This document shows, in pieces, positions 5,098 to 52,409 of a stretch of DNA of 64,000 bases (positions are counted from its first letter, which is position 1; the number at the start of each line of letters is the position of its first letter). This stretch comes from Bacteroidia bacterium (lineage in GTDB: Bacteria > Bacteroidota > Bacteroidia > UKL13-3). The translations under genes and the position numbers were made by a program. Below the pieces are notes generated by a model. That model searched no databases and was not told the origin of the DNA. It saw nothing but the letters and a program-made list of their open reading frames with translations. The stretch covers positions 2,936,167 through 3,000,166 of the forward strand of contig OZ257140.1 of the NCBI GenBank assembly GCA_965279165.1. The letters are read 5' to 3'.

Positions 5098-5611
5098 TAC
5101 TTAATGTTTTAGTTGGTGAGAATGCTGAAAAGGGGACTTCTATTTTTAAGAGGCAAGAGGCAAGAGGCATTAGACAGGAGGCAAGAGTATGTTGCCTTAT
5201 AAATTTTCATACAAATGGAAATGATTCTCCGTATTGAAGTACTAATTGTTTTAGTTACAGAGCCAATTTATTTTCTGACTTTTCAATAATTGTAGCCCTG
5301 AAAGGGCGACATATCCAAGCATCCTGCGAAGCAGGTTGATAACCGATAAAATTATTCATCACAGCCCTGAAAGGGCGACATATCTTTTTCGAAGAGTTAA
5401 GTTTTAGTACCAGATGTTTTGTGGTGCATTACATTGTAGGTAAGCTTTTTTGTTAAAAAGATGACTGACAAGGTAGTTTCTATTGTATCCAATCGCACCA
5501 CTGCACCATTCCCCATTCATAATTCATAATTCATAATTGTATCTCAAACTTCTATTAATCTGTATTATTCTACTTTAATAAACTATCTTTGATTTACAAA
5601 TAAATACCACT

Positions 5612-6244
5612 ATGAATACCAATTACGAAGAACAAATAAAAAACTGGATGTCCGATTGGCGCAAACGTTTCGAAGAAATGCAAGTACAATTTTCACTTGG
5701 TAAAATGGATGCAACCGAAACCTTTGAAAAGCAAAAGGAAATGTTGCGTAATGCAATTGTGGAATGGAAAAGTAACTTGGATAAGGCCGGCGACAAAGGA
5801 GAGGAGACGGTGACCGAAATGAAAGCGAAAATGGAATCTTTGATGTTGCAACTTAATTTAGGTAAAGCTGAAGGGAAAGATCTTTTCGAAGAACAACGCA
5901 AGAAAATCGAATTGGCTTTGCATGAAATCAAAGTATCAGCCAAAACCAATTACGATGAAAAGTTCAATGAGATGATGACTGTATTTGAAACCAGCAGCCG
6001 CGCCTTTAAAACCGGATTGGAAATTTTACAACTGCAATTTGCTTTGGCAAAAATGGATTTGAAAACAGATGCCAAAGAAATGCAAGAACAGGTAAAGGAT
6101 AAAATCGCTGAGATTACCAACTCCTACAAAGAACTGCAACAAATTGGCATGCAAAACCTCGAAGACTGGGGCAAACAAATGCAAGCCGGTTACGAAAAAA
6201 TGAAAACGATGTCGGAAGATTGGTTGAAAAAGATGAAGGGATAG
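5612..6244 (+). CDS. hypothetical alpha-helical protein with three internal ~45-aa repeats
   Basis: 210 aa, K/E/M/Q-rich, no signal peptide. The motif Q(F/L)xL(G/A)K(M/A)(D/E) recurs three times. Tandem-repeat islands flank it on both sides. Confidence 0.5.
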   Translation: MNTNYEEQIKNWMSDWRKRFEEMQVQFSLGKMDATETFEKQKEMLRNAIVEWKSNLDKAGDKGEETVTEMKAKMESLMLQLNLGKAEGKDLFEEQRKKIELALHEIKVSAKTNYDEKFNEMMTVFETSSRAFKTGLEILQLQFALAKMDLKTDAKEMQEQVKDKIAEITNSYKELQQIGMQNLEDWGKQMQAGYEKMKTMSEDWLKKMKG

Positions 6245-6249
6245 CTACA

Positions 6250-6318
6250 CTTATATCTTATAACTTATATCTTATAACTTATATCTTATAACTTATAACT
6301 TATATCTTAAACTTATCC
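6250..6318. repeat. CTTATATCTTATAA/AACTTAT tandem repeat island between convergent genes
   Basis: (cttatatcttataa)x3 plus partial units fill the whole gap between the stop of 5612-6244 (+) and the stop of 6313-7560 (-). Reverse-orientation relatives (ataagtt/ataagag) are at 50660-50697, directly after the 1606-aa gene stop. Confidence 0.85.
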
Positions 6319-7560
6319 TAAGTTAATTTTCAATCGCTGTCCGCTTTTAACCGTCTTACCTTTTAGGTGATTCCACTTACGGATTTCTTTAACGGTAACA
6401 CCATATTTATCGGCAATTTTTGCAAGGTTATCGCCACGTTTTACTTTGTAAGTTATTTTAGATCCGGATTTGGTTGTTGTAGCGTATTTGCTTCTCGAAT
6501 TATTTAGTGCGATTAATACTGAATCTTGGTTCGACTTAAAGTCGGGATTGGTTTGTAAAGTGGTAAATAATTGTGCTTTGTGGTAAGGTAAATGGATAGT
6601 AACTGCAGTATTCGACATCGGTAACATACCTCTCTTTAAGGCAGGATTATATTGTTTAAGCTCCTCCGGATTCATGGCAAGGGCTTCTGCTAAACTATTT
6701 AAGTTATATCGATTATCAACTAAAATGGTATCCATATAATAGTTGATCTGCACATTTTCGTCGGGATAAATATTGTGCTCCGAAGCATAATTCATTAAGT
6801 AAGCTGCTGCAACAAACGCAGGAACATAACCACGGGTTTCTCTTGGAAGGTATTTTTGAATTGCCCAGAAATTCTTGATTCCTCCGGCTTTGCGAATTGC
6901 TTTATTTACATTTCCCGGTCCACAGTTGTACGAGGCTATTACCAATAACCAGTCGCCATAAATACGATAAGAATTTGCCAGATATTTTATTGCAGCATCA
7001 GTCGATTTTTGAACATCCCTTCTTTCATCATAGGAAGCAGTTGTTTTTAATCCGTACATTCTGCCTGTAGGTGCCATAAACTGCCACATGCCGGCTGCGC
7101 CAACCGGTGATGTTGCCATTGGATTTAAAGCGGATTCAATAACAGCCAGATATTTTAACTCAATCGGTAAACCACTTCTATCGAGTGCTTGTTCAAATGC
7201 TGGAAAATATAATTTAGACCAGGAAAGTACTTTGGCTGATAATTTACGTCTGCGTAAGGTATATAAATCGATATATGGCCTTACAAACTCATTGTACTCT
7301 AAGGGAATTCTCGATTCTAAAATCGAAAGCCGATAAGCATAAACCGAATCTGCATAAATTGGAACATCTTGAACATCAAATCCGTATACATTTAAATCGC
7401 CTGAGGTTACTTGAGGGTATAAACGGCTGTTTAATTTCAGGGTATTGGTATCAATCAACGACAACATTTCTTCATCCGCTACAAATGTGCCTCTAACTTG
7501 GGTAAATCCAAGTTGGGTTAAGGTTAAAAGTATGCTTAAGACGAATGCGTGTTTTCTCAT
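6313..7560 (-). CDS. membrane-bound lytic murein transglycosylase (SLT domain) with C-terminal LysM domain, MltD-like
   Basis: It has a signal peptide and an SLT catalytic core (ESALNPMATSPVGAAGMWQFMAPTGR ... ASYNCGPGNV). The C-terminal LysM is YKVKRGDNLAKIADKYGVTVKEIRKWN. Confidence 0.85.
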   Translation of the reverse strand: MRKHAFVLSILLTLTQLGFTQVRGTFVADEEMLSLIDTNTLKLNSRLYPQVTSGDLNVYGFDVQDVPIYADSVYAYRLSILESRIPLEYNEFVRPYIDLYTLRRRKLSAKVLSWSKLYFPAFEQALDRSGLPIELKYLAVIESALNPMATSPVGAAGMWQFMAPTGRMYGLKTTASYDERRDVQKSTDAAIKYLANSYRIYGDWLLVIASYNCGPGNVNKAIRKAGGIKNFWAIQKYLPRETRGYVPAFVAAAYLMNYASEHNIYPDENVQINYYMDTILVDNRYNLNSLAEALAMNPEELKQYNPALKRGMLPMSNTAVTIHLPYHKAQLFTTLQTNPDFKSNQDSVLIALNNSRSKYATTTKSGSKITYKVKRGDNLAKIADKYGVTVKEIRKWNHLKGKTVKSGQRLKINLG

Positions 7561-7884
7561 ATTTTAAAATAAATGGCTTTTTTACGGGATAACTTGAAAG
7601 CCAAGATATACAAAAATAGTAAATTAGAAAAACATTTCCCAATTCCCTGCACAACCAAACGTAATTTATGTAGTATTAATTGTACAATATATCGTACCTA
7701 ACCGGTTAGAAACCATGGTATGCCTAACCAAAGCCAAACGGATGGCGCTTTTATTCCCAATGATAAGGAAGTGGTTATTTTGGTGCATTTTCAAGAAAAG
7801 CGTTTTACCGGAGAAAAGATGCCAACCAATAATTCGTAAGGGTTAGGCATTTATGGGGTGAATTAAATACTTTTGCGTTAAGAG

Positions 7885-9767: not shown

Positions 9768-9921
9768 ATATGGGTAAAATAGCCTTCCACTGCCTATTAC
9801 TAAAACACACAGTACAAAAACACTAAGTGCACTCCTCAACAATTCAATATATCAACAGATCTTCTTATGACAAATTGTAATAATTGTTTATTTTCGTCCA
9901 CTTTTAAAGAATTATAGAAAT

Positions 9922-12229: not shown

Positions 12230-12230
12230 T

Positions 12231-13212: not shown

Positions 13213-13430
13213 GTTGTTTTTAATTTATTAAAGTGAGAAATGCACCAATTTTTCATAAAGCAATTCAACACTATACCGCAAATATAATCATGGCTGTTGG
13301 TAATCTGATTATCTTTTATTGAAAGTACCCATGAACCCATTCATCCAATCATTCATAATCCATTCCCGCATGTAAAAACTACGTCGTGCCTCCTTGTTTT
13401 TATCGCGCGGGATTGATTCGCCTAGCGTCT

Positions 13431-13480
13431 CATCAACATCCATCCAATCATTCATCATTCATAATTCATCATTCACATCG
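13431..13480. repeat. CATTCAT/CATCCAT heptamer tandem repeat island
   Basis: The sequence catcaacatccatccaatcattcatcattcataattcatcattcacatc has a second block at 13335-13363. The same family is at 38681-38710, 5515-5540 (cataatt), and in reverse orientation at 51344-51430. Confidence 0.85.
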
Positions 13481-16836: not shown

Positions 16837-16842
16837 AGGGAG

Positions 16843-16887
16843 GGGGTGATGGCTAATGGGTAATGGCTGAAGGGTAATGGCGCATGG
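16843..16887. repeat. GGGTAATGG-type tandem repeat island, left arm of an inverted-repeat pair flanking the four-helix-bundle gene
   Basis: The sequence ggggtgatggctaatgggtaatggctgaagggtaatggcgcatgg begins 7 nt after the acd stop. It is the reverse complement of the CCATTACCC island at 17723-17780. Confidence 0.8.
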
Positions 16888-17331: not shown

Positions 17332-17688
17332 ATGAGAAATTTCAGAGAACTCAAAATATGGGATAATTCAATGCAGATTATCATTCCTATTTATATAATC
17401 ACCAGCAAATTTCCATTGGAAGAGCGATTTGGATTGACTTCGCAAATGCGAAGAGCGTCTGTTTCAATTGCCTCTAATATTGCAGAAGGTTGCAGCAGAA
17501 ACAGCAACAAAGAATTCAGAAGATTTCTTGAAATATCCTTAGGTTCCGCCTACGAACTCGAAACCCAATCCATTATAGCCGGAGAGCTTGGCTATATATC
17601 CAAAGAACAATTAGCCGGCTTCCTTCTGAATTTTGTTGCGTTACAAAAACAAATCAACACACTAATTAATAAACTAAAAATCGAATGA
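17332..17688 (+). CDS. four-helix-bundle protein (23S rRNA intervening-sequence protein family, TIGR02436-like)
   Basis: 118 aa. The motifs FRELKIWDNSMQI ... RASVSIASNIAEGCSRNSNKEFRRFLEISLGSAYELETQ are characteristic of this family. A paralog is at 51946-52296. Confidence 0.85.
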   Translation: MRNFRELKIWDNSMQIIIPIYIITSKFPLEERFGLTSQMRRASVSIASNIAEGCSRNSNKEFRRFLEISLGSAYELETQSIIAGELGYISKEQLAGFLLNFVALQKQINTLINKLKIE

Positions 17689-17722: not shown

Positions 17723-17780
17723 CCCATTACCCATTACCCATCTGCCATTACCTATTACCCATAAGCCATTACCCATCAGC
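17723..17780. repeat. CCATTACCC-type tandem repeat island, right arm of the inverted-repeat pair
   Basis: The sequence cccattacccattacccatctgccattacctattacccataagccattacccatcagc is the reverse complement of the 16843-16887 island. Confidence 0.8.
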
Positions 17781-17876
17781 TATAAGCTACATTCCTTGCT
17801 TAATCCAAATATTTCCCCTAATATTGCATCCCCCTTAAAATAAGAAGGGAGACTTAGGGAAAGGAGGTGTATAAAA

Positions 17877-18074: not shown

Positions 18075-18110
18075 TGCAGTAATTTCTAACTTATAACAAG
18101 CAATTATTAA

Positions 18111-18145
18111 ACCCTGTAGCTATTAGTTACAGGGTTTTTTGTTTT
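18111..18145 (+). terminator. rho-independent terminator after rpsU
   Basis: accctgta-gctattag-tacagggt is an 8-bp stem, followed by tttttgtttt. Confidence 0.8.
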
Positions 18146-19933: not shown

Positions 19934-20059
19934 CATCGTCCACCATAGCTTGGCGAAGGTGGACAACAAAGCAACCCGGGTTGCTGATAATATTGCTTTC
20001 AAACGGAATTGGATTTCGGGAAAGTAAAATCATCTTGGTTAAACCCAAGGTAAAAAAAT

Positions 20060-20132: not shown

Positions 20133-20207
20133 CGAAATGATAGGACATTGGACTTGGTCATTGGTGCATTACCAATGACCAATCGCCATTGACCAATGAC
20201 TTAAAAA

Positions 20208-20507
20208 GCCGTTGTAGCTCAGTGGTAGAGCATCCGCCGGTTGGCGGAGAAGAGGTTGAGAAGATAGGAAGTGAAGAAATAAGCCGTTGTAGCTCAGTGG
20301 TAGAGCATCCGCCGGTTGGCGGAGAAGAGGTTGAGAAGATAGGAAGTGAAGAAATAAGCCGTTGTAGCTCAGTGGTAGAGCATCCGCCGGTTGGCGGAGA
20401 AGAGGTTGAGAAGATAGGAAGTGAAGAAATAAGCCGTTGTAGCTCAGTGGTAGAGCATCCGCCGGTTGGCGGAGAAGAGGTTGAGAAGATAGGAAGTGAA
20501 GAAATAA
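20208..20507 (+). repeat. tandem array of four identical 75-bp units, each a 3'-truncated tRNA-Thr(GGT) copy with the anticodon arm replaced by a perfect GC hairpin
   Basis: The unit gccgttgtagctcagtggtagagca|tccgccggttggcgga|gaagaggttgagaagataggaagtgaagaaataa starts at 20208, 20283, 20358 and 20433. Its first 25 nt equal the 5' acceptor strand and D-arm of the tRNA at 20508. The next segment is a 6-bp/4-nt hairpin (tccgcc ggtt ggcgga), and the tail is purine-rich. The T-arm and 3' acceptor strand are absent. All three frames are open on both strands, so the ORF-track entries here are artefacts. Confidence 0.85.
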
Positions 20508-22025: not shown

Positions 22026-22088
22026 TCATAGTTTAAGTAGATACTGAATGTTGGGTAATTTGATTATCCAACATTTGGTGTCTCATAA

Positions 22089-22322
22089 ACGAGTGTAGTT
22101 CAAGGGTAGAATAGTCCCGCACGTGCGGGATTGATGGGAGTTCGGTAGAGGAAAAAATTGATGTTGGTTTTAAAAGTTGAATAATGAAAAAGTTAAAACC
22201 AATAAACGAGTGTAGTTCAAGGGTAGAATAGTCCCGCACGTGCGGGATTGATGGGAGTTCGGTAGAGAAAAAAATTGATATTGGTTTTAAAAGTTGAATA
22301 ATGAAAAAGTTAAAACCAATAA
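22089..22322 (+). repeat. two tandem 117-bp units, each a 3'-truncated tRNA-Trp copy with the anticodon arm replaced by a palindromic GC hairpin
   Basis: Units start at 22089 and 22206 and differ at 2 positions. Each is acgagtgtagttcaagggtagaata (= the tRNA-Trp 5' acceptor strand and D-arm), then gtcccgcacgtgcgggat (cccgcacgtgcggg is a perfect palindrome), then tgatgggagttcgg (variable loop and 5' T-stem), then an AT-rich tail containing the 10-bp hairpin ttggttttaa...ttaaaaccaa. The ORF-track entry 22033-22431 (-) is an artefact of this. Confidence 0.85.
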
Positions 22323-32400: not shown

Positions 32401-33794
32401 AAGAAATTCGTACGACAGATATGAGTAACGAAGAAGATGGTAATTTCCAGGTGGTATTAGGTCGTCAAGGCGAAATTCGTATCCTCGATGAAACTACCCG
32501 TCAAACAATTGTTACCATGAATATTCCTTATGGAGCGCATTTGATGGTGAAGAACGGTCAAAAGGTTGCTAAAGGAGATAGAATCTGTAAATGGGATCCA
32601 TACAATGCGGTTATCATTTCGGAACTTGCAGGACAAATTAAGTTCGAAAACATTATTGAGAATGTAACATTCAAAGATGAGTCTGATGAGCAAACCGGTC
32701 ACAAAGAAAAAGTTATTATCGAATCCAAAGACAAGACGAAGATTCCTTCTATCCTTGTTGTAGATAAAAAAGGTAACCCATTACGCGAATACAATATTCC
32801 GGTAGGGTCGCATATTATCGTAGAGAATAAAGATAATATTACTGCCGGACAGATTATGGTGAAACTTCCACGTATCATTGGTAAAACAAGAGATATTACA
32901 GGAGGATTACCACGTGTAACGGAATTATTTGAAGCACGTAATCCTTCTAACCCTGCAGTAGTAACCGAAATCGATGGTGTTGTTAGCTTTGGTGGTATCA
33001 AACGTGGTAACCGTGAGGTAGCAATTACATCAAGAGACGGTGAAACCAAAAAATACCTGGTATCATTATCGAAACATATCTTGGTACAAGAGAATGATTT
33101 TGTGAAAGCAGGATCTTCTTTATCCGATGGTTCTATTTCTCCTCAAGATATCTTGAGAATTGAAGGTCCATTAGCTGTACAACGTTATATTTTGAATGGT
33201 ATCCAAGAAGTTTATCGCTTACAAGGGGTAAAAATCAACGACAAACATATTGAAACTATCGTGCGTCAGATGATGCAGAAAGTGGAAGTAGAAGATGCCG
33301 GTGATACTTTATTCTTAGAAGGCGAAGCGGTTGATAAATGGAACTTTAAATTAACCAACGACTGGATTTACGACAAGAAGGTAGTAATGGATGCGGGCGA
33401 TTCGACCAACTTAAAAGCAGGTCAGATTGTACACGTTCGTAAATTACGCGACGAGAACTCCATGCTAAAACGCCAAGATAAAAAACTGGTTCAAGTGCGT
33501 GATGCAGTTCCGGCAACTTCGAGCCAGGTGATTATGGGTATTACCAAAGCTTCTTTGGGTACACATAGTTTCATGAGTGCTGCATCGTTCCAGGAAACAA
33601 CCAAAGTATTGAACGAAGCTGCTATCTCAGGTAAAGTAGATAACATGCTTGGATTAAAAGAAAACGTAATTGTTGGACATTTAATTCCTGCCGGTACCGG
33701 TATGCGTGATTACGAAAAACTAGTTGTAGGATCAAGAGAAGAATATGAAATGTTGATGGCTTCCAAAGCGGAAAACTTAGCAAATCAGAACTAA
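29499..33794 (+). CDS. rpoC: DNA-directed RNA polymerase subunit beta'
   Basis: 1431 aa with a zinc-binding [20 protein letters not shown] and the catalytic NADFDGD motif. Confidence 0.97.
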
Positions 33795-33814
33795 TCTTAT
33801 AACCTTATAATATA

Positions 33815-33854
33815 AAGCCCTTCCTGAGTTTCAGGAGGGGCTTTTTGTTTTTTT
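33815..33854 (+). terminator. rho-independent terminator after rpoC
   Basis: gcccttcctga-gtt-tcaggaggggc is an 11-bp stem with 1 mismatch, followed by tttttgttttttt. It is preceded by a cttataa repeat (33795-33815) directly after the stop. Confidence 0.8.
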
Positions 33855-33918: not shown

Positions 33919-34260
33919 CTAATTAATTTCTAAACAGCCTGTATCAACGTAGTTATTGTCGGTTAGAAAGGCTTTTATTATATCCGAATGGGTATGAATG
34001 ACCTTTATTAAATTGTCTGTTGATGTATTTCCCATCCTCAGCCAAATTACTTTAGGTGGATGTCCATATAGAGTTACAAGGTCATAAAAATCAGCATCAA
34101 AGGTCACAATCGAATAATGCTCCCTTTTTGCGAAATCCCATATTTCACGGTCACTCTTATTTTCCAAGCCTAATTCTCTAACTTGGCCGCATTCGGGGAA
34201 TGTAAGTTTGAGATTTAATGCAACTCGGAATGAAATATTTTGATCGAATAAGAGTTTCAC
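33919..34260 (-). CDS. DUF5615-family PIN-like putative toxin
   Basis: 113 aa; MKLLFDQNIS ... DREIWDFAKREHYSIVTFDADF ... HPPKVIWLRMGN matches the DUF5615 pattern. Its start overlaps the upstream DUF433 gene by ATGA. Confidence 0.7.
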   Translation of the reverse strand: MKLLFDQNISFRVALNLKLTFPECGQVRELGLENKSDREIWDFAKREHYSIVTFDADFYDLVTLYGHPPKVIWLRMGNTSTDNLIKVIHTHSDIIKAFLTDNNYVDTGCLEIN

Positions 34261-35800: not shown

Positions 35801-36499
35801 ATGAAAAGATTATTCCTCATTGCTTTCGGATTTGTAATTACTTCCAATACATTGATTGCACAGGTTAAAAGTGGCATCACTTCTTTAACTTTTAATGGCT
35901 ATGCCAGGGCCATGACAGTAGGTGATGACAAAGATGAGATTGACTTGCGTTTTGTTGGTTCTACCTCTACCCGCATAGGGGATAGTTTATTGTCGGATAT
36001 GATATTAACTTATTCGGAACAGGAAATCGGAAAATTTCTAGGGCATGATTTGTTACCGGTATCCCGTGTTAGAAGTAAAAATACCCCGGATGATTTAAAT
36101 GGATCCTTGTTTGTGATGGAAACCATCACTGAAAAGAAGGCATTTAAAGAACTTGATTACGACGAAGTAATTACCATACAATGTAGTATTAACCGAAATA
36201 GCTCGAAAACGGTGAAAGGCAACAAAATGTATGAACCGATCATTACATTGAATATTCGCATTACAGGAAGAGACGGAGAAAAAATTTATAAGAAAAGTGA
36301 GTCGTTAAAATTGAAAGATCAATGGATAGCTGCAGCATTAATTGAAGAAAAACAGGCGGATGGAAAGTTCGACGTGTCGTTAAAAAATCTAAAAACCGTT
36401 ACCGTGGATACCGGTGGCAGCGATATGGCAAAAGGTGTGAGTGCCGTTGAATTACTTGACTGGTATAAACAAGTTTTAGGGAATGCGCTTATTCGATAG
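35801..36499 (+). CDS. hypothetical secreted protein
   Basis: 232 aa with a signal peptide (MKRLFLIAFGFVITSNTLIAQ). No domain recognised. Confidence 0.55.
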   Translation: MKRLFLIAFGFVITSNTLIAQVKSGITSLTFNGYARAMTVGDDKDEIDLRFVGSTSTRIGDSLLSDMILTYSEQEIGKFLGHDLLPVSRVRSKNTPDDLNGSLFVMETITEKKAFKELDYDEVITIQCSINRNSSKTVKGNKMYEPIITLNIRITGRDGEKIYKKSESLKLKDQWIAAALIEEKQADGKFDVSLKNLKTVTVDTGGSDMAKGVSAVELLDWYKQVLGNALIR

Positions 36500-36576
36500 T
36501 GTTGAAGTGTTGCCCACCTTCGCTAAAGCTACGGTGGACGAGTGTTGAAGTGTTAAGGTGTTAAGGTGTTGAAGTA
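36500..36576. repeat. GTGTTRAG octamer tandem repeat island
   Basis: The sequence gtgttgaagtgttgcc ... gagtgttgaagtgttaaggtgttaaggtgttgaagtac starts at the stop codon of 35801-36499. The repeats bracket a short hairpin ccacc-ttcgctaaagctac-ggtgg. Confidence 0.8.
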
Positions 36577-36712
36577 CGGGTAGTAGAGACCACTCAACAG
36601 TTTTCGTGACTAGGCCTAATTACGTATTTACTCAATTACTTAATTACTTCTTTCATGTTTTTTGTCACAAATGACCTAAGTCATCTTTAATAAGCCAGTT
36701 ATGGGTTAACCT

Positions 36713-38545
36713 TTGCTGCAAATGAATGAAATAACAACTAAAGGTCATACCTTTCATATACCGGTAATGGGATTGGCATATACCATTGACACTCCTTTAA
36801 AAGTAGCGAAATACGGAATATCTTCAGTAATTTCTATTGTGGAAGATGTATTGATAGAACAAATGCGGGAATTCCACGCCAAACAGGCCGGAATAGTATT
36901 TAATCCAATACCAATAGATTCAAAAGATTGTCGTGCAAATCGCATTACTGCATACCTAAATTTGGTGCATCAATTGGTGAACGAACAAATCTCTGCCTTA
37001 AAAATTTCTGATTTTTCAAAAGGGTCGGAATTACATAAATACTTTGAATTGTTACCTGAAAATGCTGCACTCAAATTAGTTTATAACAATATGTTAGTTA
37101 TGCAAGAGGGTAAGGATAAAGAAGCTTTGCAAACTTATTTAAAGGATAATATTGTTGCCGGCGATATTGATGTAAACATTATGTCGAAGGCCGATCGGTT
37201 TACCTTTACCAAAGCCGGTGATGCAATTATCGACGAAAATTCGATGGCACTTGCTGCCTTACGCGGTTTTGCCAATAGCAATCTTACCTCTTCTGTGGTA
37301 TTATCAGCAGGATTTAATCCACGGTTGTATGCCTACCTCGAAAATTTCAAAGATTTTTTTCCGGATGCAAAAGGACAAGTAAAAAAGAAGATCATTTTAA
37401 AAGTAAGTGATTACCGTTCGGCATTAACACAAGGAAAATTACTGGCAAAGAAAGGGGTATGGATTTCAGAATATAGGATTGAATCCGGTTTGAATTGCGG
37501 AGGTCATGCCTTTGCTACAGATGGAATTTTACTTGGGCCGATTTTAGAAGAATTTAAAAGGAACCGCGATTCCTTGCAAAAGGAATTGTATACGATGTGT
37601 AATCTTGCGCTTGAAGCAAAAGGAGCAATTCCATTTGCAGGTATTCCTATTATGAAAATATCAGTACAAGGTGGTGTTGGTACTTCTTTGGAAAACGATT
37701 TATTACTCGATTATTATAAAGCCGATAGCATTGGATGGGGAAGTCCGTTTTTGCTGGTTCCGGAAGCTACCAATGTAGATGAAGAAACATTGAATCAATT
37801 GGCAAATGCACAAAAAGAGGATTATTACTTGAGTCATTCATCACCTTTCGGAATACCATTTAATAATTTTCATCCTTCATCCTCACAGCAACAACGTTTA
37901 CAAAGAATAGAAAAAGGTGTTCCCGGAAGTCCTTGTTATAAAAAAGGCCTGGCTAGCAATACCGAATTTACAAAGGAACCTATTTGCACTGCTTCAAGGG
38001 AATACCAGCATCTAAAGATTAAACAGTTGCAAAGTGCAGGATTGCCTGAAGCTGAATATTTAGATGCTTATAACGCTGTTATCGAAAAGGAATGCCTTTG
38101 TGAAGGACTTGCAGCATCTGCTATTATTAAGAATGACATCAAACCATTGCATAAATTAAAAGCAGTTGCTATTTGCCCTGGACCAAACCTTGCCTTTTTC
38201 TCCGGTAAATTTACCCTTGCAGAGATGGTAGGACATATTTATGGTCGTTTTAATATTCTAAACCAGGAAAGAAGACCACATATGTTTGTTAACGAACTCA
38301 AGTTGTATGTAGATTATTATAAGAATGAATTAAATAAGAATGTGCAGGAATTAACAGCAAATAAAGCACGTCAACTCAAATCATTCCAAACCAACCTGCT
38401 CGAAGGAATTGACTACTACAATAAACTAATTGGTGAGTTGAAAATTGATGCGGAAAAATTTGTTGAAGACATGAAACAGGATTTGCTTGAATTAGAAGCG
38501 GTTTTGAGGCATCTTACGTACGACAAAGAAATGAGTAGAATTTGA
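36713..38545 (+). CDS. hypothetical protein (610 aa), unrecognised family
   Basis: It is a long ORF with coding-like composition and no signal peptide. It contains ESGLNCGGHAF and Cys-containing segments (KECLCEGLAASAII, AVAICPGPN), and the C-terminus is coiled-coil-like. I could not assign a family from the sequence. Confidence 0.6.
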   Translation: MLQMNEITTKGHTFHIPVMGLAYTIDTPLKVAKYGISSVISIVEDVLIEQMREFHAKQAGIVFNPIPIDSKDCRANRITAYLNLVHQLVNEQISALKISDFSKGSELHKYFELLPENAALKLVYNNMLVMQEGKDKEALQTYLKDNIVAGDIDVNIMSKADRFTFTKAGDAIIDENSMALAALRGFANSNLTSSVVLSAGFNPRLYAYLENFKDFFPDAKGQVKKKIILKVSDYRSALTQGKLLAKKGVWISEYRIESGLNCGGHAFATDGILLGPILEEFKRNRDSLQKELYTMCNLALEAKGAIPFAGIPIMKISVQGGVGTSLENDLLLDYYKADSIGWGSPFLLVPEATNVDEETLNQLANAQKEDYYLSHSSPFGIPFNNFHPSSSQQQRLQRIEKGVPGSPCYKKGLASNTEFTKEPICTASREYQHLKIKQLQSAGLPEAEYLDAYNAVIEKECLCEGLAASAIIKNDIKPLHKLKAVAICPGPNLAFFSGKFTLAEMVGHIYGRFNILNQERRPHMFVNELKLYVDYYKNELNKNVQELTANKARQLKSFQTNLLEGIDYYNKLIGELKIDAEKFVEDMKQDLLELEAVLRHLTYDKEMSRI

Positions 38546-38578
38546 GTAGGAGGCAGGAGGCAGGAGGCAAGAGGCAGG
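38546..38578. repeat. GGCARGAG purine-rich tandem repeat
   Basis: ggaggcaggaggcaggaggcaagaggcagg starts right after the stop of 36713-38545. A relative, agaggcaagaggcaagaggcattagacaggaggcaagag, is at 5149-5187 after mltG. Confidence 0.8.
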
Positions 38579-38700
38579 TGTGGGATATTTGAATCTGTTT
38601 TGGTATAAAGTACCATGCAAGAATTCAATCGCCGCATGTAAAAAGGTATCGTACCTCCTTGTTTTTATCTTGCGGGATTAAAACATTCATCATTCATCAT

Positions 38701-39084
38701 TCATCCCTCATAAAACTCAATAGGCAAATGATCCGGATCTGCAATAAAGGTAAATCGTTTGCCGGTAGTTTCATCCGTGCGAATTGGTTCAGGTAGGATA
38801 TTCTTTGCTTTTAAATAGTCAATCCAGTTGTCGAGATTGTCAACTGTAAATGCAATATGTCGTAAGCCCATTGCTTCGGGGTAGGAGGGTCGAGCCGGGG
38901 CTGAAGGGAAAGTAAAAAGTTCAAGTCTATAATTTCCATCTAACGAAAGGTCAATTTTATGGCTATTTCGGTCTGCCCGATACGTTTCATTCACCAATTT
39001 AAATCCTAGAATTTCGATATAAAATTTACGGGACAACGCAAGATTGGAACAAATAATGGCAACATGATGGATTCCTTTTAGCAT
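38701..39084 (-). CDS. VOC family protein (glyoxalase/bleomycin resistance/dioxygenase fold)
   Basis: 127 aa; GIHHVAIICSNLALSRKFYIEILGF ... LRHIAFTVDNL are the paired beta-alpha-beta-beta-beta modules typical of VOC proteins. Confidence 0.75.
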   Translation of the reverse strand: MLKGIHHVAIICSNLALSRKFYIEILGFKLVNETYRADRNSHKIDLSLDGNYRLELFTFPSAPARPSYPEAMGLRHIAFTVDNLDNWIDYLKAKNILPEPIRTDETTGKRFTFIADPDHLPIEFYEG

Positions 39085-48800: not shown

Positions 48801-50661
48801 ACCTGCAGTAAATGTGATTACCTATAAGTATTATCAGAGCTACGGACCATGGACCTATAATTTTGTGCCATATACCACCCAATGTGTAAACAGCGATACT
48901 ACGATATTTGCCGTAACAGCGATACCACAAATTAATGCAGGCAGCGAGATTAGTGTATGCAAGAATGAACCGGTATTTAATATTGCTACCAAAACAGGCG
49001 CAACCATCTCGCCAATTACAGGAGAATCGTATTGGATAGCAAAAAATGCAAACACCACCGGCAAAGGAATAGTAAATGCAGGGGTTGACTTTGATGCATC
49101 ACAACCGGGTGTACCATACTCGGCAAGCAAGGAGATGATTATTTTCAAAGATTCATCCACCGGATGTTTGGTATCGGATACCACCTATTTAACCATTGTT
49201 GGATATCCAAAAGTAGATGTAAGCTTCTCGTTGAATGATAAAAACGATAGTGCACATACGATGTGTTTGTCGACCGGAAATTACGATGTGTATACTTGGA
49301 TTAACGATACCTTAAAGGCAGGATATACCAATAGTGCAGCACCGGAGTATTCGTATTTGGGAACACCGGCATGGCATCCGAAAAACATAGGAACTATAAA
49401 TGATGGTTTACCTAAAGCTGAATTTAACAGCAACGAATCAGGACTAACCGCAGGAACGCATGATTTAATATTTAAATACTCGCAATCCAATGGAGTAATC
49501 ACTTGTTCCAATACCGATGTAGCGAAAATGACCGTAGAACAACCTCCTGTTGTAAACGTAACACCGGGAGGAGCCATTTGTGCTTACGACAATGATATCC
49601 CGGTATCGGTGGATGTTCAACCAACTACGTATACCATTAACTGGAGCACCGCACCGGGAGCAGGAACTTTTGGCAACAATGCAGCTACCAACACTACCTT
49701 TACCCCATCGCAAGCATCAAAAGATGCAGGCACAGTTTGGGTATATGCCACTACTTTGCAAACAGGAACCTGTGTACCACAAACCGATTCAACCACCGTG
49801 CGCATCGACAAAGTTCCGGTGGCAGGATATAACTGTCCGGATTGCGATGGTTGCGAACCATTAACTTCTAACCTGAATGCATTACCAACAGGTGTATCGA
49901 ATGCTAAATTCAATTGGGTATGGATAGATGGATATGGCAACAACAACAGCGATTCGGCCTTTACCAGAACGATACCATTTTATGGAACCGATGGAGAACA
50001 TCCATTTAGTTTAATCGTTGAGAGTGGGGAGTCGACTGCTTGTAGAGATACGATAGAAGGTAAGATGGTAGTGAGAGCAAAACCGCAAGCCGGCTTTACG
50101 TTTGATCCACCGTACACCACGATTGCAAAACCATTCTTTACTTTTACCAATACATCAACCGTAAAAGACAATACCATATTAAGTTATATCTGGGATATGG
50201 GCGATTTACCGGGAGTAGATCCTGCATCGCGCATCATGACCGATCCGAATCCTGCAGGTGTGCCGTTTAAGGAAGACACTACCTTGATTAAACTAAGGGT
50301 AACAAGCGAGTACCAATGTTGGGATACCACATCGCATATCATGAAAGTAGAGCCGGACATTACGGTATTTACACCGAATGCATTTTACCCGAACAGCAGT
50401 GTTCCTTGTCCGGATGGAAATGAAGATTGTAACCGCAGTTTCCAAATTGCAGCAACCGGTTATGCATCGGTAGAGATATTTGTATTTAACCGTTGGGGAC
50501 AACAGGTATATTATTCGAATGTAGCGGAAGAGGGATGGAACGGAAGGATTAACAACAAAGGGGATGAGTGTCCGCAGGATGTATATATTTATCAGGTGAA
50601 TGCAACGAGCTTCAATGGTAAGTTGTATAAATACTCGGGATCGATAACGTTACTACGATAA
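45841..50661 (+). CDS. very large secreted protein with T9SS type B (gliding-motility-associated) C-terminal domain
   Basis: 1606 aa with a signal peptide and a Cys-rich N-terminal ~200 aa. The body is Thr/Asn/Gly-rich and beta-rich. The C-terminus VFTPNAFYPNSS ... NRWGQQVYYSN ... GWNGR ... YIYQVNATSFNGKLYKYSGSITLLR matches the type B CTD pattern. Confidence 0.8.
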   Translation: MTKMITTIGRFIVVLLMCLSFQNLYATHMVGSDITYKCLDANGNYKVTLVYYRDCSGVPTCGGNCSAIASCTKNVSVRGADPSCNGTLFLNFTVTGVSVRDVNPNPRCANAKMICDNMGCVSPGSLTPGIERYEFQGIVNIGPSSGIPATCCNVVFSFEECCRNGAIQNISPQNFYTEATVNRCAATYPDCNSPDLTNDPYAVLCAGQGFIFNNGAFDPDLDSLVYSFTASLYGYGVSATYIAPYSYDIPMPYKPPLSGNYPFGIKVDALTGDIMFTPNAFPFTGCLALRMEQWRLINGVYVVVGVTRRDLQMYIKYCDPNTPPTLRTDPPGIPPLKPKTKYEVCAGDQVCFDVIAKDTDFNPPTISDTTFLSWNKVMENFGATFIPNYNPAARKVLGPREDTYKVCWTPQDIHCKRGQPTTYPFTIKAVDSRCPYPGIITQAFSIRVLPRADVSVDKVDNQCGRWVVRYLKNPALVPAQTFQSTTIMIAKNPEDYSFMGGAYTYANVQSSPVLYFPKGGKYLIEVTINMLGPSTGGFCSRTYRDTLYVITPVTSIIRDTFTCKNVSMTISASGQFGSAPYTYRWYNNIKDTLTPLNGPVYTSANYNVSPTSTRHYTLQIRDINGCRSWDSIAVQVKQLPVGLLADSARICFGDTFLLDPGNNNGNIRSYLWNTGDTTATIARKDSNTFTVIMTDTFGCVNPDSLKLFVNAKINARAGLDTFICQKDTTLLMGEGGSQYMWKNLANGQTISAKSYIPFVKVNPTNTAAATKYQVTVYQSYPDTTNKNLECSAVDTVAISVRPLPTLSKPSTPTIACYGSLVANLYPFNTPVPGQQGGTGVWSYPKAPGAVVFPNTGPSITSQPAVKLDSLKNKPSGDSFNTHDNYVNFTYTEPVYGCKNTDSAIVRIYGRPPVDAGTRLTVCENITGTIDLQTTAYQGLPPNGHNVQPKYNSGLSAQYNWIGNGIDSVMSPVKKFYFNPSKAGVLKLPAVNVITYKYYQSYGPWTYNFVPYTTQCVNSDTTIFAVTAIPQINAGSEISVCKNEPVFNIATKTGATISPITGESYWIAKNANTTGKGIVNAGVDFDASQPGVPYSASKEMIIFKDSSTGCLVSDTTYLTIVGYPKVDVSFSLNDKNDSAHTMCLSTGNYDVYTWINDTLKAGYTNSAAPEYSYLGTPAWHPKNIGTINDGLPKAEFNSNESGLTAGTHDLIFKYSQSNGVITCSNTDVAKMTVEQPPVVNVTPGGAICAYDNDIPVSVDVQPTTYTINWSTAPGAGTFGNNAATNTTFTPSQASKDAGTVWVYATTLQTGTCVPQTDSTTVRIDKVPVAGYNCPDCDGCEPLTSNLNALPTGVSNAKFNWVWIDGYGNNNSDSAFTRTIPFYGTDGEHPFSLIVESGESTACRDTIEGKMVVRAKPQAGFTFDPPYTTIAKPFFTFTNTSTVKDNTILSYIWDMGDLPGVDPASRIMTDPNPAGVPFKEDTTLIKLRVTSEYQCWDTTSHIMKVEPDITVFTPNAFYPNSSVPCPDGNEDCNRSFQIAATGYASVEIFVFNRWGQQVYYSNVAEEGWNGRINNKGDECPQDVYIYQVNATSFNGKLYKYSGSITLLR

Positions 50662-50980
50662 TAGTTATAAGTTATAAGATATAAGAGATAAGAGAGCAAA
50701 GTCTATAAAAGTTTAAGGTTAGGAAAATTTTCTCGAAGCAGGATAACGGGCAGGGGGTGAGCGGCATGTTTGAGCTCCTTTTTATTTGACTTGGATGAAG
50801 TTTTAAAAATATAGCAGCCTCAGGTGGTTACAAATGACTTGAAGCAAGGTGAAAATAAAAAGAGCGAGTAGCGAACACCCGGCCATGTAGTAATGCGAAG
50901 AAAATAATAATTTGAAATACGTGAGCTAGCCGCATTTACTACATGGGGCCCGCATAAAAAAATAAAGAGAAAATTATTGT

Positions 50981-51343
50981 TTAGTGTTTGTGGTCGTCCC
51001 CAAACACATTTAATTTATGTCCTAAGGCATGCGAAAAATCACGAATATCTTCGGCAACTTCTTTGTTATCGGTTGCGCGTTCAAAGGTGTCTGCAAGGGT
51101 TGCTATGGTTTGAAATAGGAACAAATTCATTTCTTCCACATTCATGTCTTTTGTCCATAGGTCGATGCGCAATGCATTTTGTTGCAGCCCATCCCATAAA
51201 GATAAAATTACTGATTTTGCTTCTTGTTTACCATCCACATCTGCATCATCCGCCTCCCATTGAATGGATAACGGTAGATTGTCTTTGTCTAAATGAATAC
51301 TGAAATTTATGTGTGATGATTTTACGATTTCCGGAGTTGACAT
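50981..51343 (-). CDS. possible gliding motility protein GldC (tentative)
   Basis: 120 aa, soluble. The motifs SLWDG ... LRIDLWTKDM ... EEMNLF are as I remember them from the GldC family; this call is not verified. Confidence 0.4.
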   Translation of the reverse strand: MSTPEIVKSSHINFSIHLDKDNLPLSIQWEADDADVDGKQEAKSVILSLWDGLQQNALRIDLWTKDMNVEEMNLFLFQTIATLADTFERATDNKEVAEDIRDFSHALGHKLNVFGDDHKH

Positions 51344-51430
51344 GATGAATTATGAATTATGAATTATGAATTATGAATGATGAATGATGAATGATGAATG
51401 ATGAGTTATGAGTTATGAGTTATGAGTTAT
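51344..51430. repeat. ATGAATT/ATGAATG/ATGAGTT heptamer tandem repeat island
   Basis: It has (atgaatt)x3, (atgaatg)x4 and (atgagtt)x4 in tandem, directly abutting the GldC-like start codon. It is the reverse complement of the CATTCAT islands at 13431-13480 and 38681-38710. Confidence 0.85.
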
Positions 51431-51461
51431 GAGTTATTGGGTATAATTGACTGCAAATATA

Positions 51462-51791
51462 TTATTTAGGAAGGGCATTTTTTAATTCCTTCAGAAAAGC
51501 TTTCAGGTTGGTTAATTTTTCCAGTAAAACTGCCTGTGGTTCAATATGGGGTTGGGTTTTTAAGTATGCTTTTGCGCCTTCTAAGGTCATGCCTTTTTCT
51601 TTAACCAGGTGATGAATGAGTTTGATTATTTGAATATCTTTTTCGGTATATTTTCGTGTACCTTTTTCTGATTTATAAGGTTTAATCTGTTTAAATTCTT
51701 TCTCCCAAAACCGAATCAAAGAAGGAGCTTCGCTTATTAAAGAGGCAACTTCGGAGATGGAGAAGAGGGTTTTGGTTGGTGGATTTTGCAT
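51462..51791 (-). CDS. MerR-family transcriptional regulator
   Basis: 109 aa; the N-terminal HTH FSISEVASLISEAPSLIRFWEKEF is followed by a short helical C-terminus. Confidence 0.7.
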   Translation of the reverse strand: MQNPPTKTLFSISEVASLISEAPSLIRFWEKEFKQIKPYKSEKGTRKYTEKDIQIIKLIHHLVKEKGMTLEGAKAYLKTQPHIEPQAVLLEKLTNLKAFLKELKNALPK

Positions 51792-51945
51792 TTAAAGCTA
51801 CTTTAATTGGTTGAAGGCAATTGGTCAAAAGCGATCGGTCCAAAGCATTCTGTTGAAATTAAATGGTCGAAAGTTATCGATTCAAAGTTATTGGTTAAAA
51901 CTAAATTAGAAAGCGCAATTTGAATAATTGACATGAAAATTTTAT

Positions 51946-52296
51946 TCATAAACTTTTTCTTAAGGCTTGAATTGAAATAATCAGTCTGGATGTTTTCTCA
52001 TAATAAATTACAAATTGCTCCTCATTAATTCTATTCCGTCCTTTCGCAAGATACAAACAACTTAATACCTCAATTCCGAATCGCAAGGCATACCCAAGAA
52101 ATCTTCTAAATTCAGGTGTTGATTGACCTGTTGAACCTTCTGCTATATTCAATGATATGGAATCACTTGCGCGTTGAATTTGAGATGTAAGGATGTAAAG
52201 TTCTTCTTTTGGGAAACTTTGCGTTAAAAAATATATATTATTGGAAAGTTCAATTGCTTCTTTCCAAACCCGTAGATTTTCAAATTTGAATTGCAT
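51946..52296 (-). CDS. four-helix-bundle protein (23S rRNA IVS protein family), second paralog
   Basis: 116 aa; LRVWKEAIELSNNIYFL ... RASDSISLNIAEGSTGQSTPEFRRFLGYALRFGIEV is the same family as 17332-17688. It is flanked by the inverted repeats 51821-51846 and 52375-52400. Confidence 0.85.
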   Translation of the reverse strand: MQFKFENLRVWKEAIELSNNIYFLTQSFPKEELYILTSQIQRASDSISLNIAEGSTGQSTPEFRRFLGYALRFGIEVLSCLYLAKGRNRINEEQFVIYYEKTSRLIISIQALRKSL

Positions 52297-52409
52297 AAAA
52301 TTAGGCTAGTATTACATACAATAATAATAAACATTACATAAATAAGCTTTATTTCATCAATCATTTGACTGATTGCTTTGGACCGATCGCTTTGGACTGA
52401 TTGCTACAT

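What the first reader, a model, noticed from the sequence alone, without database searches (positions are those of the whole stretch)
5149..52403. Pervasive heptamer/octamer tandem-repeat islands that abut stop codons, in several sequence families and both orientations
At least a dozen intergenic spots are short tandem arrays built from word-like 7-9-mers:
- CATTCAT / CATAATT at 5515-5540, 13335-13363, 13431-13480 and 38681-38710, and its complement ATGAATG / ATGAGTT at 51344-51430
- AACTTAT / CTTATAA at 6250-6318, 18088-18097 and 33795-33815, and its complement ATAAGTT at 50660-50697
- GGGTAATGG and its complement at 16843-16887 and 17723-17780
- GGCARGAG at 5149-5187 and 38546-38578
- GTGTTRAG at 36500-36576
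- GACCAATG at 20146-20200
- TTGGTCNAAAGC at 51801-51900 and 52364-52403

They start within a few nt of stop codons, often filling the whole gap between convergent genes. They even sit between the rpoC stop and its terminator.

They are neither CRISPR arrays, nor REP hairpins, nor long-unit classical VNTRs. Their position at gene 3' ends and their dyad-partner families suggest a role in transcript 3'-end definition or in transcriptional insulation. Alternatively they could be footprints of a repeat-generating process.

This is the most conspicuous non-genic signal in the window. It seems to characterise the genome, but from this window alone I cannot tell whether these islands are genome-wide.
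Basis: seen in the sequence. Interest (0 to 1): 0.6.

Follow-up and report, generated by a model that had tools for sequence, protein, structure and literature searches.

The report
Hypervariable seven-base repeats between genes
The gaps between genes in this freshwater Bacteroidota genome are studded with short tandem runs of 7-base words that change length between strains, a known but poorly understood kind of bacterial microsatellite, and some of them form the paired arms of hairpins that enclose a small selfish-looking gene.

Summary
Tandem Repeats Finder and my own lag scan find about 15 arrays. Almost all have period 7 (a few 8, 14 or 21), against 0.13 expected by chance. All are intergenic and cover about 10% of intergenic DNA. 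Half of the 14 that face a stop codon begin within 10 nt of it (P = 0.0007).

They are heptanucleotide simple-sequence repeats. This class is already described in cyanobacteria (STRR), Xanthomonas, Beggiatoaceae and a few Bacteroidetes.

- Metagenome contigs of the same species carry 19 units where the window has 13, and about 10 where it has about 5.
- 470 kb from related genera hold almost none.
- Direct arrays do not fold. The real terminators after rpoC and rpsU are separate hairpins, and several arrays lie in 5' leaders or promoter regions. A role in 3'-end definition is therefore not supported.
- The "dyad partner" families are real hairpins. Two pairs bracket PF05635 (S23p/Avd-like, 23S-rRNA-IVS-type) genes. 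11 of 14 such genes examined, from Bacteroidia and cyanobacterial plasmids, had inverted heptamer arms.
- Still unexplained: the G-richer strand points away from the nearest gene, and arrays have a modal length of 4-5 units.

Verdict: new member of a known kind, moderate interest.

The parts
5148..5187 (.). AAGAGGC x5.7 direct array, 50 nt after the stop of the YceG/MltG gene (4048-5097)
   Evidence: TRF; lag scan; Pfam; same word family as 38548-38578 (D8)
5515..5538 (+). (C/A)ATTCAT x3.4 array, 73 nt upstream of the start of gene 5612-6244; C-containing, G-free on the sense strand
   Evidence: TRF; pattern match; position
6249..6316 (.). CTTATAT/CTTATAA x9.9 array (higher-order period 14) that fills the whole gap between convergent genes 5612-6244(+) and 6313-7560(-)
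   Evidence: TRF (D6)
13447..13475 (+). CATTCAT x4.1 array in the divergent region upstream of the gene whose true start is ATG 13521. It is preceded by one copy of a dispersed motif of about 50 nt (13366-13414)
   Evidence: TRF; start corrected by tblastn to L031; motif
16844..16887 (+). Left arm (GGGTAAT/GGCTAAT heptamers) of the hairpin that brackets the first PF05635 gene. It begins 7 nt after the stop of the acyl-CoA dehydrogenase gene
   Evidence: (44 nt, 80% complementary to 17724-17767)
17332..17688 (+). PF05635 (23S rRNA IVS protein / four-helix-bundle, Avd-like) gene enclosed by the arms 16844-16887 and 17723-17787
   Evidence: Pfam (E 2e-36); second-highest flank-complementarity score among 49 genes
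17723..17787 (+). Right arm (CCCATTA heptamers, higher-order period 21), complementary to 16844-16887
20146..20200 (.). Solo hairpin made of inverted CATTGGT/ACCAATG heptamers (13-bp perfect stem), between tRNA-Gly and the pseudo-tRNA repeats
   Evidence: TRF; fold -24.7 kcal/mol, z -5.6
33792..33815 (+). Marginal 2.4-copy 8-mer (TAACCTTA) between the rpoC stop and its terminator. The terminator itself is the separate hairpin 33814-33844
   Evidence: TRF score 31; fold; terminator scan
36500..36575 (+). GTGTTRAG octamer array starting 1 nt after the stop of gene 35801-36499, interrupted by a 24-nt hairpin element (36514-36537)
   Evidence: TRF
36617..36649 (+).
   Evidence: TRF
38548..38578 (+). 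AGGAGGC x4.4 array starting 2 nt after the stop of gene 36713-38545
   Evidence: TRF
38684..38711 (-). CATTCAT x3-4 array. On the minus strand it reads ATGAATG and supplies the TGA stop of the glyoxalase gene 38701-39084. It is preceded by the second copy of the dispersed motif (38632-38679)
   Evidence: TRF
50663..50697 (+). AGTTATA/AGATATA array of about 5 units overlapping the stop of the 1606-aa T9SS protein gene; about 10 units in strain contig L034
   Evidence: TRF
51345..51437 (-). 13-unit array (5 AACTCAT + 4 CATTCAT + 4 AATTCAT on the sense strand). It lies between a Bacteroidetes-type -7 box (TATATTTG) and the gldC ATG, so it makes up the gldC leader. Strain contig L033 has 19 units
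   Evidence: TRF; unstructured
51801..51900 (-). Downstream arm region of the second PF05635 cassette (core 51817-51853, GGTCNAAAGCNATC 14-mers), between the PF05635 stop and the MerR start
   Evidence: 37 nt, 86% complementary to 52368-52404
51946..52296 (-). Second PF05635 gene, inserted between the M23 peptidase and MerR genes. The same site is empty in most related genera and occupied in L013 and L155
   Evidence: Pfam (E 8e-30); PDB 2GSC match; synteny; top flank-complementarity score of 49 genes
52364..52405 (-). Upstream arm of the second PF05635 cassette (period 14), starting 4 nt after the M23 peptidase stop
   Evidence: TRF

Best explanation
The islands are heptanucleotide simple-sequence repeats: bacterial 'long SSRs' of the kind called STRR in cyanobacteria.

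- How they change: units are gained and lost by strand slippage or unequal exchange in DNA that carries no coding constraint. Unit number and unit variants therefore turn over between strains (shown). Whole arrays appear and vanish between genera (shown).
- Where they persist: placement is filtered by selection on neighbouring signals (inferred). Arrays can sit flush against stop codons, and often supply the stop themselves. Those next to start codons are the G-free, AUG-free orientation.
- Function: they are not terminators.
- The hairpin subset: some arrays occur as inverted pairs that form long hairpins. One is solo (20146-20200). Two bracket PF05635/S23p genes, an architecture like the RNase III-processed intervening sequences of 23S rRNA but placed between protein genes. 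The stem is shown; RNase III processing is inferred.
- Open questions: why the unit is 7 nt, why 4-5 units is the commonest size, and why the G-rich strand points away from the nearest gene.
For: - Period-7 specificity and intergenic restriction.
- Strain polymorphism with conserved flanks: the gldC leader has 13 units in the window and 19 in L033/L034. The array after the 1606-aa gene has about 5 units against about 10. L032 has a different word upstream of rpsU.
- Block structure of variants, and higher-order periods 14 and 21.
- Orthologous gaps in 30 related genomes (470 kb) hold only 2 arrays. Gaps of similar size there contain no repeats.
- Direct arrays are unstructured, and the real terminators are separate.
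- The same kind of array is widespread. 120 metagenome contigs with GC 26-69% carry 264 period-7 arrays, against 1-16 for each other period.
- Orientation depends on position. Within 30 nt of stops the sense strand reads ATGARTK 33:11. Near starts it reads MAYTCAT 23:12. Fisher P = 5e-4.
- Published precedent: heptamers are the dominant long SSR in bacteria (Mrazek 2007, as cited in PMC4679880). Xanthomonas and Nostoc heptamers are 89-93% intergenic, lie on average 28 nt from the 5' neighbouring ORF, include inverted pairs and vary in length (PMC4692102). TAACTGA repeats occur in Beggiatoaceae, cyanobacteria and 5 Bacteroidetes (PMC4679880).
- Hairpins. The two PF05635 genes have the two highest flank-complementarity scores among 49 window genes.
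Against: - Simple slippage predicts array lengths that decline monotonically. Instead, 123 metagenome arrays peak at 28-35 nt, and Xanthomonas arrays peak at 4 units (PMC4692102).
- The strand polarity relative to the nearest gene holds whatever that gene's orientation (11 of 15 in the window; 43 vs 21 in metagenomes). A purely neutral model does not predict this.
- The same words (CATTCAT, CTTATAA, TAACTGA) recur in unrelated organisms.
- Only three sites could be compared between strains.
- The genome-wide distribution was not seen.
Confidence: 0.7

Rival explanations
1. The arrays are functional cis-elements read at the RNA or DNA level. They could be binding platforms for a protein that measures 7 nt per subunit (for example cold-shock/S1-type OB folds), or tuned untranslated-region spacers that set translation or mRNA stability.
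For: - Modal size of 4-5 units.
- The polarity rule, replicated in three data sets (PMC4692102).
- The G-free, unstructured array directly abuts the gldC ATG.
- In Nostoc, deleting heptamer repeats changed recF/recO reporter expression (bioRxiv 10.1101/2022.06.06.494920).
- A translational role has been proposed for TAACTGA repeats (PMC4679880).
Against: - Unit number at the gldC leader differs by 6 units between conspecific contigs.
- Arrays are absent from the same gaps in related genera.
- There are many unrelated words within 64 kb, with no conserved word per gene class.
- No candidate binding protein was identified here.
Confidence: 0.15
2. The arrays are the ends, or the dispersed footprints, of a mobile S23p (PF05635) cassette family. 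This would resemble REP sequences dispersed by the RAYT gene that they flank. Orphan arrays and solo hairpins would be derivatives lacking the gene.
For: - 11 of the 14 PF05635 genes examined have inverted heptamer-periodic arms. Two more have heptamer arrays in another arrangement: direct on both sides in L165, and on one side in L167.
- This holds even in heptamer-poor relatives (L010, L013).
- L155 has solo hairpins of the same GTCCACR heptamers 1 kb from its cassette.
- The cassette is present or absent at the M23|MerR site among genera.
- PF05635 genes sit inside cas, cmr and nrd operons in cyanobacterial plasmids.
- The Coxiella IVS stem contains strain-variable GACAGAT heptamers (PMC4990558).
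Against: - The two window cassettes have unrelated arm words, and neither word occurs elsewhere in the window.
- Orphan arrays use other words.
- PF05635 density is no higher in heptamer-rich contigs (1 in 640 kb) than in heptamer-poor relatives (2 in 470 kb).
- PF05635 has no known nuclease or recombinase activity.
- No target-site duplications were seen.
Confidence: 0.1
3. The arrays define transcript 3' ends or insulate neighbouring transcription units, as intrinsic or Rho-dependent terminators.
For: - Enrichment next to stop codons and in convergent gaps.
- Only two strong intrinsic terminators occur in the scanned regions, so other termination signals must exist.
Against: - Direct arrays contain no hairpin or T tract.
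- The rpoC and rpsU terminators are separate from the arrays.
- Sense strands next to stops are G-rich and C-poor, unlike rut sites.
- Arrays also occupy 5' leaders and a divergent promoter region.
- Array length varies between strains.
Confidence: 0.04
4. The arrays are an assembly or sequencing artefact local to this window.
For: Metagenome contigs tend to break inside long arrays: L032 and L034 start within arrays.
Against: - Three independent assemblies (JGI 3300009527, ENA ERZ27245432, Logan ERR14064761) contain arrays at the same sites with near-identical flanks.
- The same architecture occurs in finished cyanobacterial plasmids.
Confidence: 0.01

Closest known systems
Heptanucleotide long simple-sequence repeats of bacteria (Mrazek et al. 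2007; GGGAATC in Xanthomonas and GGGGA(C/T)T in Nostoc, Rehm et al. 2015, PMC4692102)
   Same: - 7-nt unit, tandem, about 90% intergenic, typically 4-5 units.
- Closer to the gene on the 5' side of the G-rich strand, whatever that gene's orientation.
- Some occur as inverted pairs.
- Length varies between close relatives.
   Different: - The host is a freshwater Bacteroidia lineage.
- Words are AT-rich and non-G4-forming, and at least eight different word families occur within 64 kb rather than one dominant word.
- None of the published words occurs even as a dimer here.
STRR (short tandemly repeated repetitive) heptamers of heterocystous cyanobacteria (Mazel et al. 1990; from my own knowledge, and cited in PMC4692102)
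   Same: - Tandem heptamers of several families scattered through intergenic DNA, and variable between strains.
- A TTGGTC core like STRR2 appears in 20146-20200 and 51801-51900.
   Different: - The host is not a cyanobacterium (GldC, CHU_C/T9SS, single 1431-aa rpoC).
- The STRR consensus words are not tandemly repeated here.
TAACTGA intergenic direct repeats of Beggiatoaceae, cyanobacteria and five Bacteroidetes (MacGregor 2015, PMC4679880)
   Same: - Heptamer direct repeats in intergenic DNA, sometimes directly upstream of start codons, as at gldC.
- Sporadic phylogenetic distribution that includes Bacteroidetes.
- Other heptamer words occur alongside them.
   Different: - TAACTGA itself is never repeated in the window.
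- Here the bias is towards stop codons rather than start codons.
23S rRNA intervening sequences carrying an S23p ORF (Leptospira, Coxiella; PMC4990558)
   Same: - A PF05635 ORF enclosed by terminal inverted repeats that form a stem of about 28-44 bp.
- Heptamer repeats in the stem, with strain-variable number in Coxiella.
   Different: The window cassettes lie between protein-coding genes (acyl-CoA dehydrogenase|rpsU and M23 peptidase|merR), not inside 23S rRNA. RNase III cleavage was not tested.
REP/BIME elements and REPtrons (REP sequences flanking a RAYT gene)
   Same: - Intergenic, hairpin-forming, often next to stop codons.
- A small gene flanked by inverted copies of the repeat.
   Different: - There is no shared REP consensus: each array has its own word.
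- Arrays are tandem microsatellites rather than dispersed copies of a 20-40-nt palindrome.
- The enclosed gene is a four-helix bundle, not an IS200-like transposase.

Membership tests
Heptanucleotide long SSR (LSSR / STRR-type) | Head-to-tail tandem copies of a 7-nt unit, far above chance | tested here: met
   TRF. Lag scan: 9 arrays against 0.13 expected, with other periods at about 0-2. Autocorrelation peaks at 7, 14, 21 and 28.
Heptanucleotide long SSR (LSSR / STRR-type) | Located in intergenic DNA | tested here: met
   With the manual gene model all arrays are intergenic; a few overlap a stop codon by a few nt. In metagenome contigs 209 of 264 lie outside the crude ORF calls.
Heptanucleotide long SSR (LSSR / STRR-type) | Unit-number polymorphism between close strains | tested here: met
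   13 vs 19 units, and about 5 vs about 10 units, between the window and contigs encoding an identical GldC.
Heptanucleotide long SSR (LSSR / STRR-type) | Genome-wide distribution at many loci | not testable with these tools
   The source record (3.28-Mb contig) cannot be fetched. Within the window, arrays span 5-52 kb.
Heptanucleotide long SSR (LSSR / STRR-type) | Polarity: closer to the ORF on the 5' side of the G-rich strand (Rehm 2015) | tested here: met
   Window 11 of 15. Metagenome arrays 43 vs 21, P = 0.008.
Cyanobacterial STRR sensu stricto | Consensus words CCCCAGT, TTGGTCA or CAACAGT in tandem, in a heterocystous cyanobacterium | tested here: not met
   No tandem dimer of any of these words. 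The gene content is Bacteroidota.
TAACTGA repeat family | TAACTGA as the repeated unit | tested here: not met
   8 singletons and 0 dimers.
Intrinsic terminators | GC-rich hairpin followed by a T tract | tested here: not met
   Direct arrays do not fold better than shuffles. The terminator scan hits only separate hairpins at 18109-18137 and 33814-33844.
CRISPR array | 24-48-nt repeats separated by unique spacers of similar length | tested here: not met
   Units are 7-14 nt and contiguous, with no spacers.
REP/MITE dispersed repeats | Many dispersed copies of one consensus element | tested here: not met
   Arm words occur only at their own cassette. Only a two-copy motif of about 50 nt and a two-copy 24-nt hairpin are dispersed.
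S23p-type intervening sequence (IVS) cassette | ORF of family PF05635 | tested here: met
   E = 2e-36 and 8e-30. PDB 2GSC XCC0516, E = 1e-14.
S23p-type intervening sequence (IVS) cassette | Terminal inverted repeats forming a long stem around the ORF | tested here: met
   44 nt at 80% and 37 nt at 86%. The minimum-energy fold of the whole gap keeps the stem, z = -5.8. Own-arm duplexes average -47 against -25 kcal/mol for cross pairs.
S23p-type intervening sequence (IVS) cassette | Inserted in a 23S rRNA helix | tested here: not met
   Both cassettes lie between protein genes. There is no rRNA in the window.
S23p-type intervening sequence (IVS) cassette | Excised from the transcript by RNase III | not testable with these tools
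   Needs RNA end mapping or an in vitro cleavage assay.
Phase-variation (contingency) SSR | The repeat lies within an ORF or between promoter elements, so that unit number switches expression | tested here: inconclusive
   The gldC array lies between a putative -7 box and the ATG. The 13447 array lies upstream of a putative -7 box. Promoters are inferred from sequence only.

The most novel reading that the evidence does not exclude
Tandem heptamers may be the cis-component of a widespread selfish cassette built around the S23p/Avd-like four-helix-bundle gene (PF05635).

Under this reading the cassette lives not only in 23S rRNA but also in the spacers of ordinary operons, enclosed by arms of about 35 nt (about 5 heptamers) that co-evolve to stay paired. 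The orphan heptamer arrays and solo heptamer hairpins seen in cyanobacteria, Xanthomonas, Bacteroidia and many uncultured bacteria would be products of the same heptamer-specific process. That would explain the 7-nt unit, the 4-5-unit mode and the strand polarity.
Probability: 0.12. Interest if true: 0.7.

Novelty: new member of a known kind. Interest (0 to 1): 0.4.

Why it matters
Heptamer repeats are the commonest long microsatellite in bacteria, yet nobody knows why the unit is seven bases or what the repeats do.

This window shows the phenomenon in a freshwater Bacteroidia lineage whose sister genera lack it. It shows real strain-to-strain length changes. It also reproduces two odd regularities, strand polarity and a preferred size of 4-5 units, that a neutral slippage model does not predict.

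The repeated pairing of heptamer arms around S23p/Avd-like genes in Bacteroidia and cyanobacteria, together with a published case in Coxiella, gives a concrete and testable lead. It may link these repeats to the unexplained 'intervening sequence' elements of ribosomal RNA.

On the practical side, the arrays break short-read assemblies and would make good strain-typing markers.

Tried and rejected
- Exact-protein look-ups failed for the 610-aa protein, tuf, both PF05635 genes, glyoxalase, MerR and genes 5612 and 35801. Only S21 and GldC gave conspecific contigs.
- A viral-contig scan with a PF05635 profile found nothing.
- Rfam found nothing on any island, at gathering thresholds or at E <= 1; only the 5 tRNAs matched.
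- The sigma-70 promoter scan was uninformative, with fewer hits than in shuffles, as expected for Bacteroidota.
- A bias of CATTCAT-type words towards the sense strand was rejected overall (21 vs 24). Orientation matters only in combination with position.
- Local enrichment of PF05635 genes in heptamer-rich contigs was rejected.
- A CRISPR reading and a REP-consensus reading were rejected.
- The idea that arrays are rut sites for Rho was rejected on composition.
- I considered whether the lack of arrays in relatives is a MAG assembly artefact. The finished genome CP012155 and contigs longer than 400 kb also lack them at this locus.

Full report
**What the window is.** The gene order is tRNA-Thr/Tyr/Gly/Thr, tuf, tRNA-Trp, (secE), nusG, rplKAJL, rpoB (1271 aa), then a single rpoC (1431 aa). 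Together with GldC, a CHU_C/T9SS protein and 37% GC, this places the window in Bacteroidota. The closest genome in the species-representative collection is an uncultured Bacteroidia MAG with 92% GldC identity. Other relatives include Bacteroidetes bacterium UKL13-3 and lake MAGs. The source is a 3.28-Mb contig in NCBI that the tools do not return.

**Checking the observation.**
- Tandem Repeats Finder reports period-7 arrays at 5148, 5515, 6249, 13447, 16844, 17723, 20171, 38548, 38684, 50663 and 51345. It reports period 8 at 36541 and 36617, and period 14 at 52367.
- A lag-match scan finds 9 period-7 arrays against 0.13 expected in dinucleotide shuffles. It finds 0-2 for every other period from 4 to 12.
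- Intergenic DNA shows autocorrelation peaks at 7, 14, 21 and 28, while coding DNA shows only period 3.
- The arrays add up to about 760 nt, roughly 10% of the 7.8 kb of intergenic sequence.
One listed site (18088-18097) is a single word, and three sites are degenerate.

**Position relative to genes.**
- Of the 14 arrays that face a stop codon, 7 start within 10 nt of it. Random placement within the same gaps gives 2.5 (P = 0.0007).
- All four convergent gaps of 20 nt or more hold arrays, against one of six divergent gaps. The claim that the arrays abut stop codons therefore holds statistically.
- It is not the whole picture. The 13-unit array at 51345-51437 runs from a Bacteroidetes-type -7 box to the gldC ATG. 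5515-5538 lies 73 nt upstream of a start. 13447-13475 lies upstream of a gene whose true start is ATG 13521.

**What the arrays are.** They are hypervariable microsatellites.
- Two metagenome contigs encode an identical GldC and have near-identical flanks. They carry 14 AACTCAT + 1 CATTCAT + 4 AATTCAT units where the window has 5 + 4 + 4.
- The array after the 1606-aa gene has about 10 units there against about 5 in the window.
- A third contig has an AATTCAT/AACTCAT array upstream of rpsU where the window has the CCCATTA arm.
- Arrays consist of blocks of identical variant units with higher-order periods of 14 and 21. This is the signature of local duplication and deletion.
- 30 syntenic loci from related genera (470 kb) hold only two period-7 arrays. 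The merR-gldC gap is of similar length in several of them but is not repetitive.
- The trait is therefore recent and specific to this lineage.

**Not terminators.** The gldC leader array folds at -0.5 kcal/mol, and the other direct arrays fold no better than shuffles, or only weakly. The terminators after rpoC (33814-33844) and rpsU (18109-18137) are ordinary GC hairpins with T tracts, distinct from the adjacent words. Arrays next to stops are G-rich and C-poor on the sense strand, the opposite of a Rho loading site.

**The dyad partners.**
- 20146-20200 is a 13-bp perfect hairpin of inverted heptamers (-24.7 kcal/mol, z = -5.6).
- The GGGTAAT/CCCATTA pair and the GGTCCAAAGC pair each bracket a PF05635 gene. 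This family is the 23S-rRNA intervening-sequence protein, also called four-helix bundle or Avd-like; its solved relative is XCC0516, PDB 2GSC.
- Among 49 window genes, these two have the highest complementarity between their flanks.
- The minimum-energy fold of the whole M23-to-merR gap keeps the long stem.
- The cassette at the M23|merR site is absent from most related genera. It is present in L013 and in the L155 group, with diverged but still paired arms.
- Own-arm duplexes are much stronger than cross-cassette ones, averaging -47 against -25 kcal/mol.
- In eight cyanobacterial plasmids the same gene sits in operon spacers: cas6|cas4 (twice), cmr2|cmr3 and nrdB|nrdA among them. It is flanked by inverted heptamer arrays in five plasmids, by direct arrays on both sides in one, on one side in one, and by none in one.
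- The Coxiella 23S IVS, which encloses an S23p ORF in an RNase III-cleaved 28-bp stem, also contains strain-variable GACAGAT heptamers (PMC4990558).

**How general the phenomenon is.**
These contigs carry 264 period-7 arrays, against 1-16 for each other period. Many form inverted pairs.
- Arrays near stops read ATGARTK on the sense strand (33:11). Arrays near starts read MAYTCAT (23:12). Fisher P = 5e-4.
- Put another way, arrays lie closer to the gene on the 5' side of their G-richer strand, whatever that gene's orientation: 43 vs 21, with medians of 12.5 and 68.5 nt. The window's mixed word families follow the same rule, 11 of 15.
- Array lengths peak at 28-35 nt rather than declining monotonically.
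- Both regularities were reported for GGGAATC repeats in Xanthomonas (PMC4692102). Neither has an explanation.

**Comparison with what is known.** The islands meet the defining features of bacterial heptanucleotide long SSRs. They resemble cyanobacterial STRR and the TAACTGA repeats, but they use none of the published words and sit in a different phylum. This makes them a new member of a known kind. The PF05635 cassettes match the IVS architecture except for their location.

**Best explanation (confidence 0.7).** The arrays are slippage-driven heptamer microsatellites, tolerated in unconstrained intergenic DNA and filtered by selection on translation signals. A subset serves as, or evolved within, the stems of hairpins around S23p genes.

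The rivals are functional protein- or RNA-level elements (0.15), footprints of a mobile S23p cassette system (0.10), terminators (0.04) and artefact (0.01).

Noticed in passing
window 20203-20507 and 22085-22318: There are tandem pseudo-tRNA units: 75 nt x4 at 100% identity before the intact tRNA-Thr(GGT), and 117 nt x2 at 98% before the intact tRNA-Trp. Each unit keeps the tRNA 5' half. The anticodon arm is replaced by a GC tetraloop hairpin (CCGCCGGTTGGCGG or CCCGCACGTGCGGG). Neither ARAGORN nor Rfam recognises the units as tRNA.
   Followed up: partly
L163, L164, L165, L169 (cyanobacterial plasmids), PF05635 ORF at about 1480-1850 in each: PF05635 'four helix bundle' genes sit in the spacers of operons. 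They lie between cas6 and cas4 of type I-D CRISPR-Cas in Anabaena sp. 90 and Pseudanabaena galeata. They also lie between cmr2 and cmr3 in Picosynechococcus PCC 7003, and antisense between nrdB and nrdA in Nostoc edaphicum. All 17 plasmid records with a hit are cyanobacterial.
   Followed up: partly
window 13366-13414 and 38632-38679: A two-copy dispersed motif of about 50 nt (CCGCATGTAAAAA..CCTCCTTGTTTTTATCNNGCGGGATT, about 90% identical) lies immediately upstream of a CATTCAT array in both places. At least some arrays may therefore travel as part of a larger small element.
   Followed up: partly
window 36514-36537 (-) and 19940-19962 (+): Two copies of a 23-24-nt hairpin element (CCACC-N13/14-GGTGG) are present. 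One is inserted inside the GTGTTRAG octamer array. This recalls, from my own memory and unverified, the small dispersed repeats nested in heptamer arrays of Nostoc punctiforme.
   Followed up: partly
L155 4300-4490: There are two solo hairpins whose arms are the same GTCCACR heptamers as the arms around that genome's PF05635 gene 1 kb upstream.
   Followed up: no
L001 9300-9530: In the closest relative the M23|merR gap holds, instead of the cassette, three copies of a different hairpin repeat (GCGATTCATCGCGTCTC-type) plus two inverted partners.
   Followed up: no
metagenome loci L035-L154: Heptamer-array hairpins such as (AGTGATG)n-loop-(CATCACT)n occur in contigs of 57-69% GC, where these AT-rich words are compositional outliers. 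L105 carries TAACTGA arrays, and L064 carries (CCCTAAT)n/(ATTAGGG)n hairpins.
   Followed up: partly
window 33919-34260 (-): A DUF5615 gene (PIN-like toxin family) lies directly after the rpoC terminator, in a conserved ribosomal/RNA polymerase region. From my own knowledge it is often paired with DUF433.
   Followed up: no
window 51817-51853 and 52368-52404: The 14-mer arms contain GCGATCG/CGATCGC cores. From my own knowledge these resemble the cyanobacterial HIP1 palindrome GCGATCGC.
   Followed up: no
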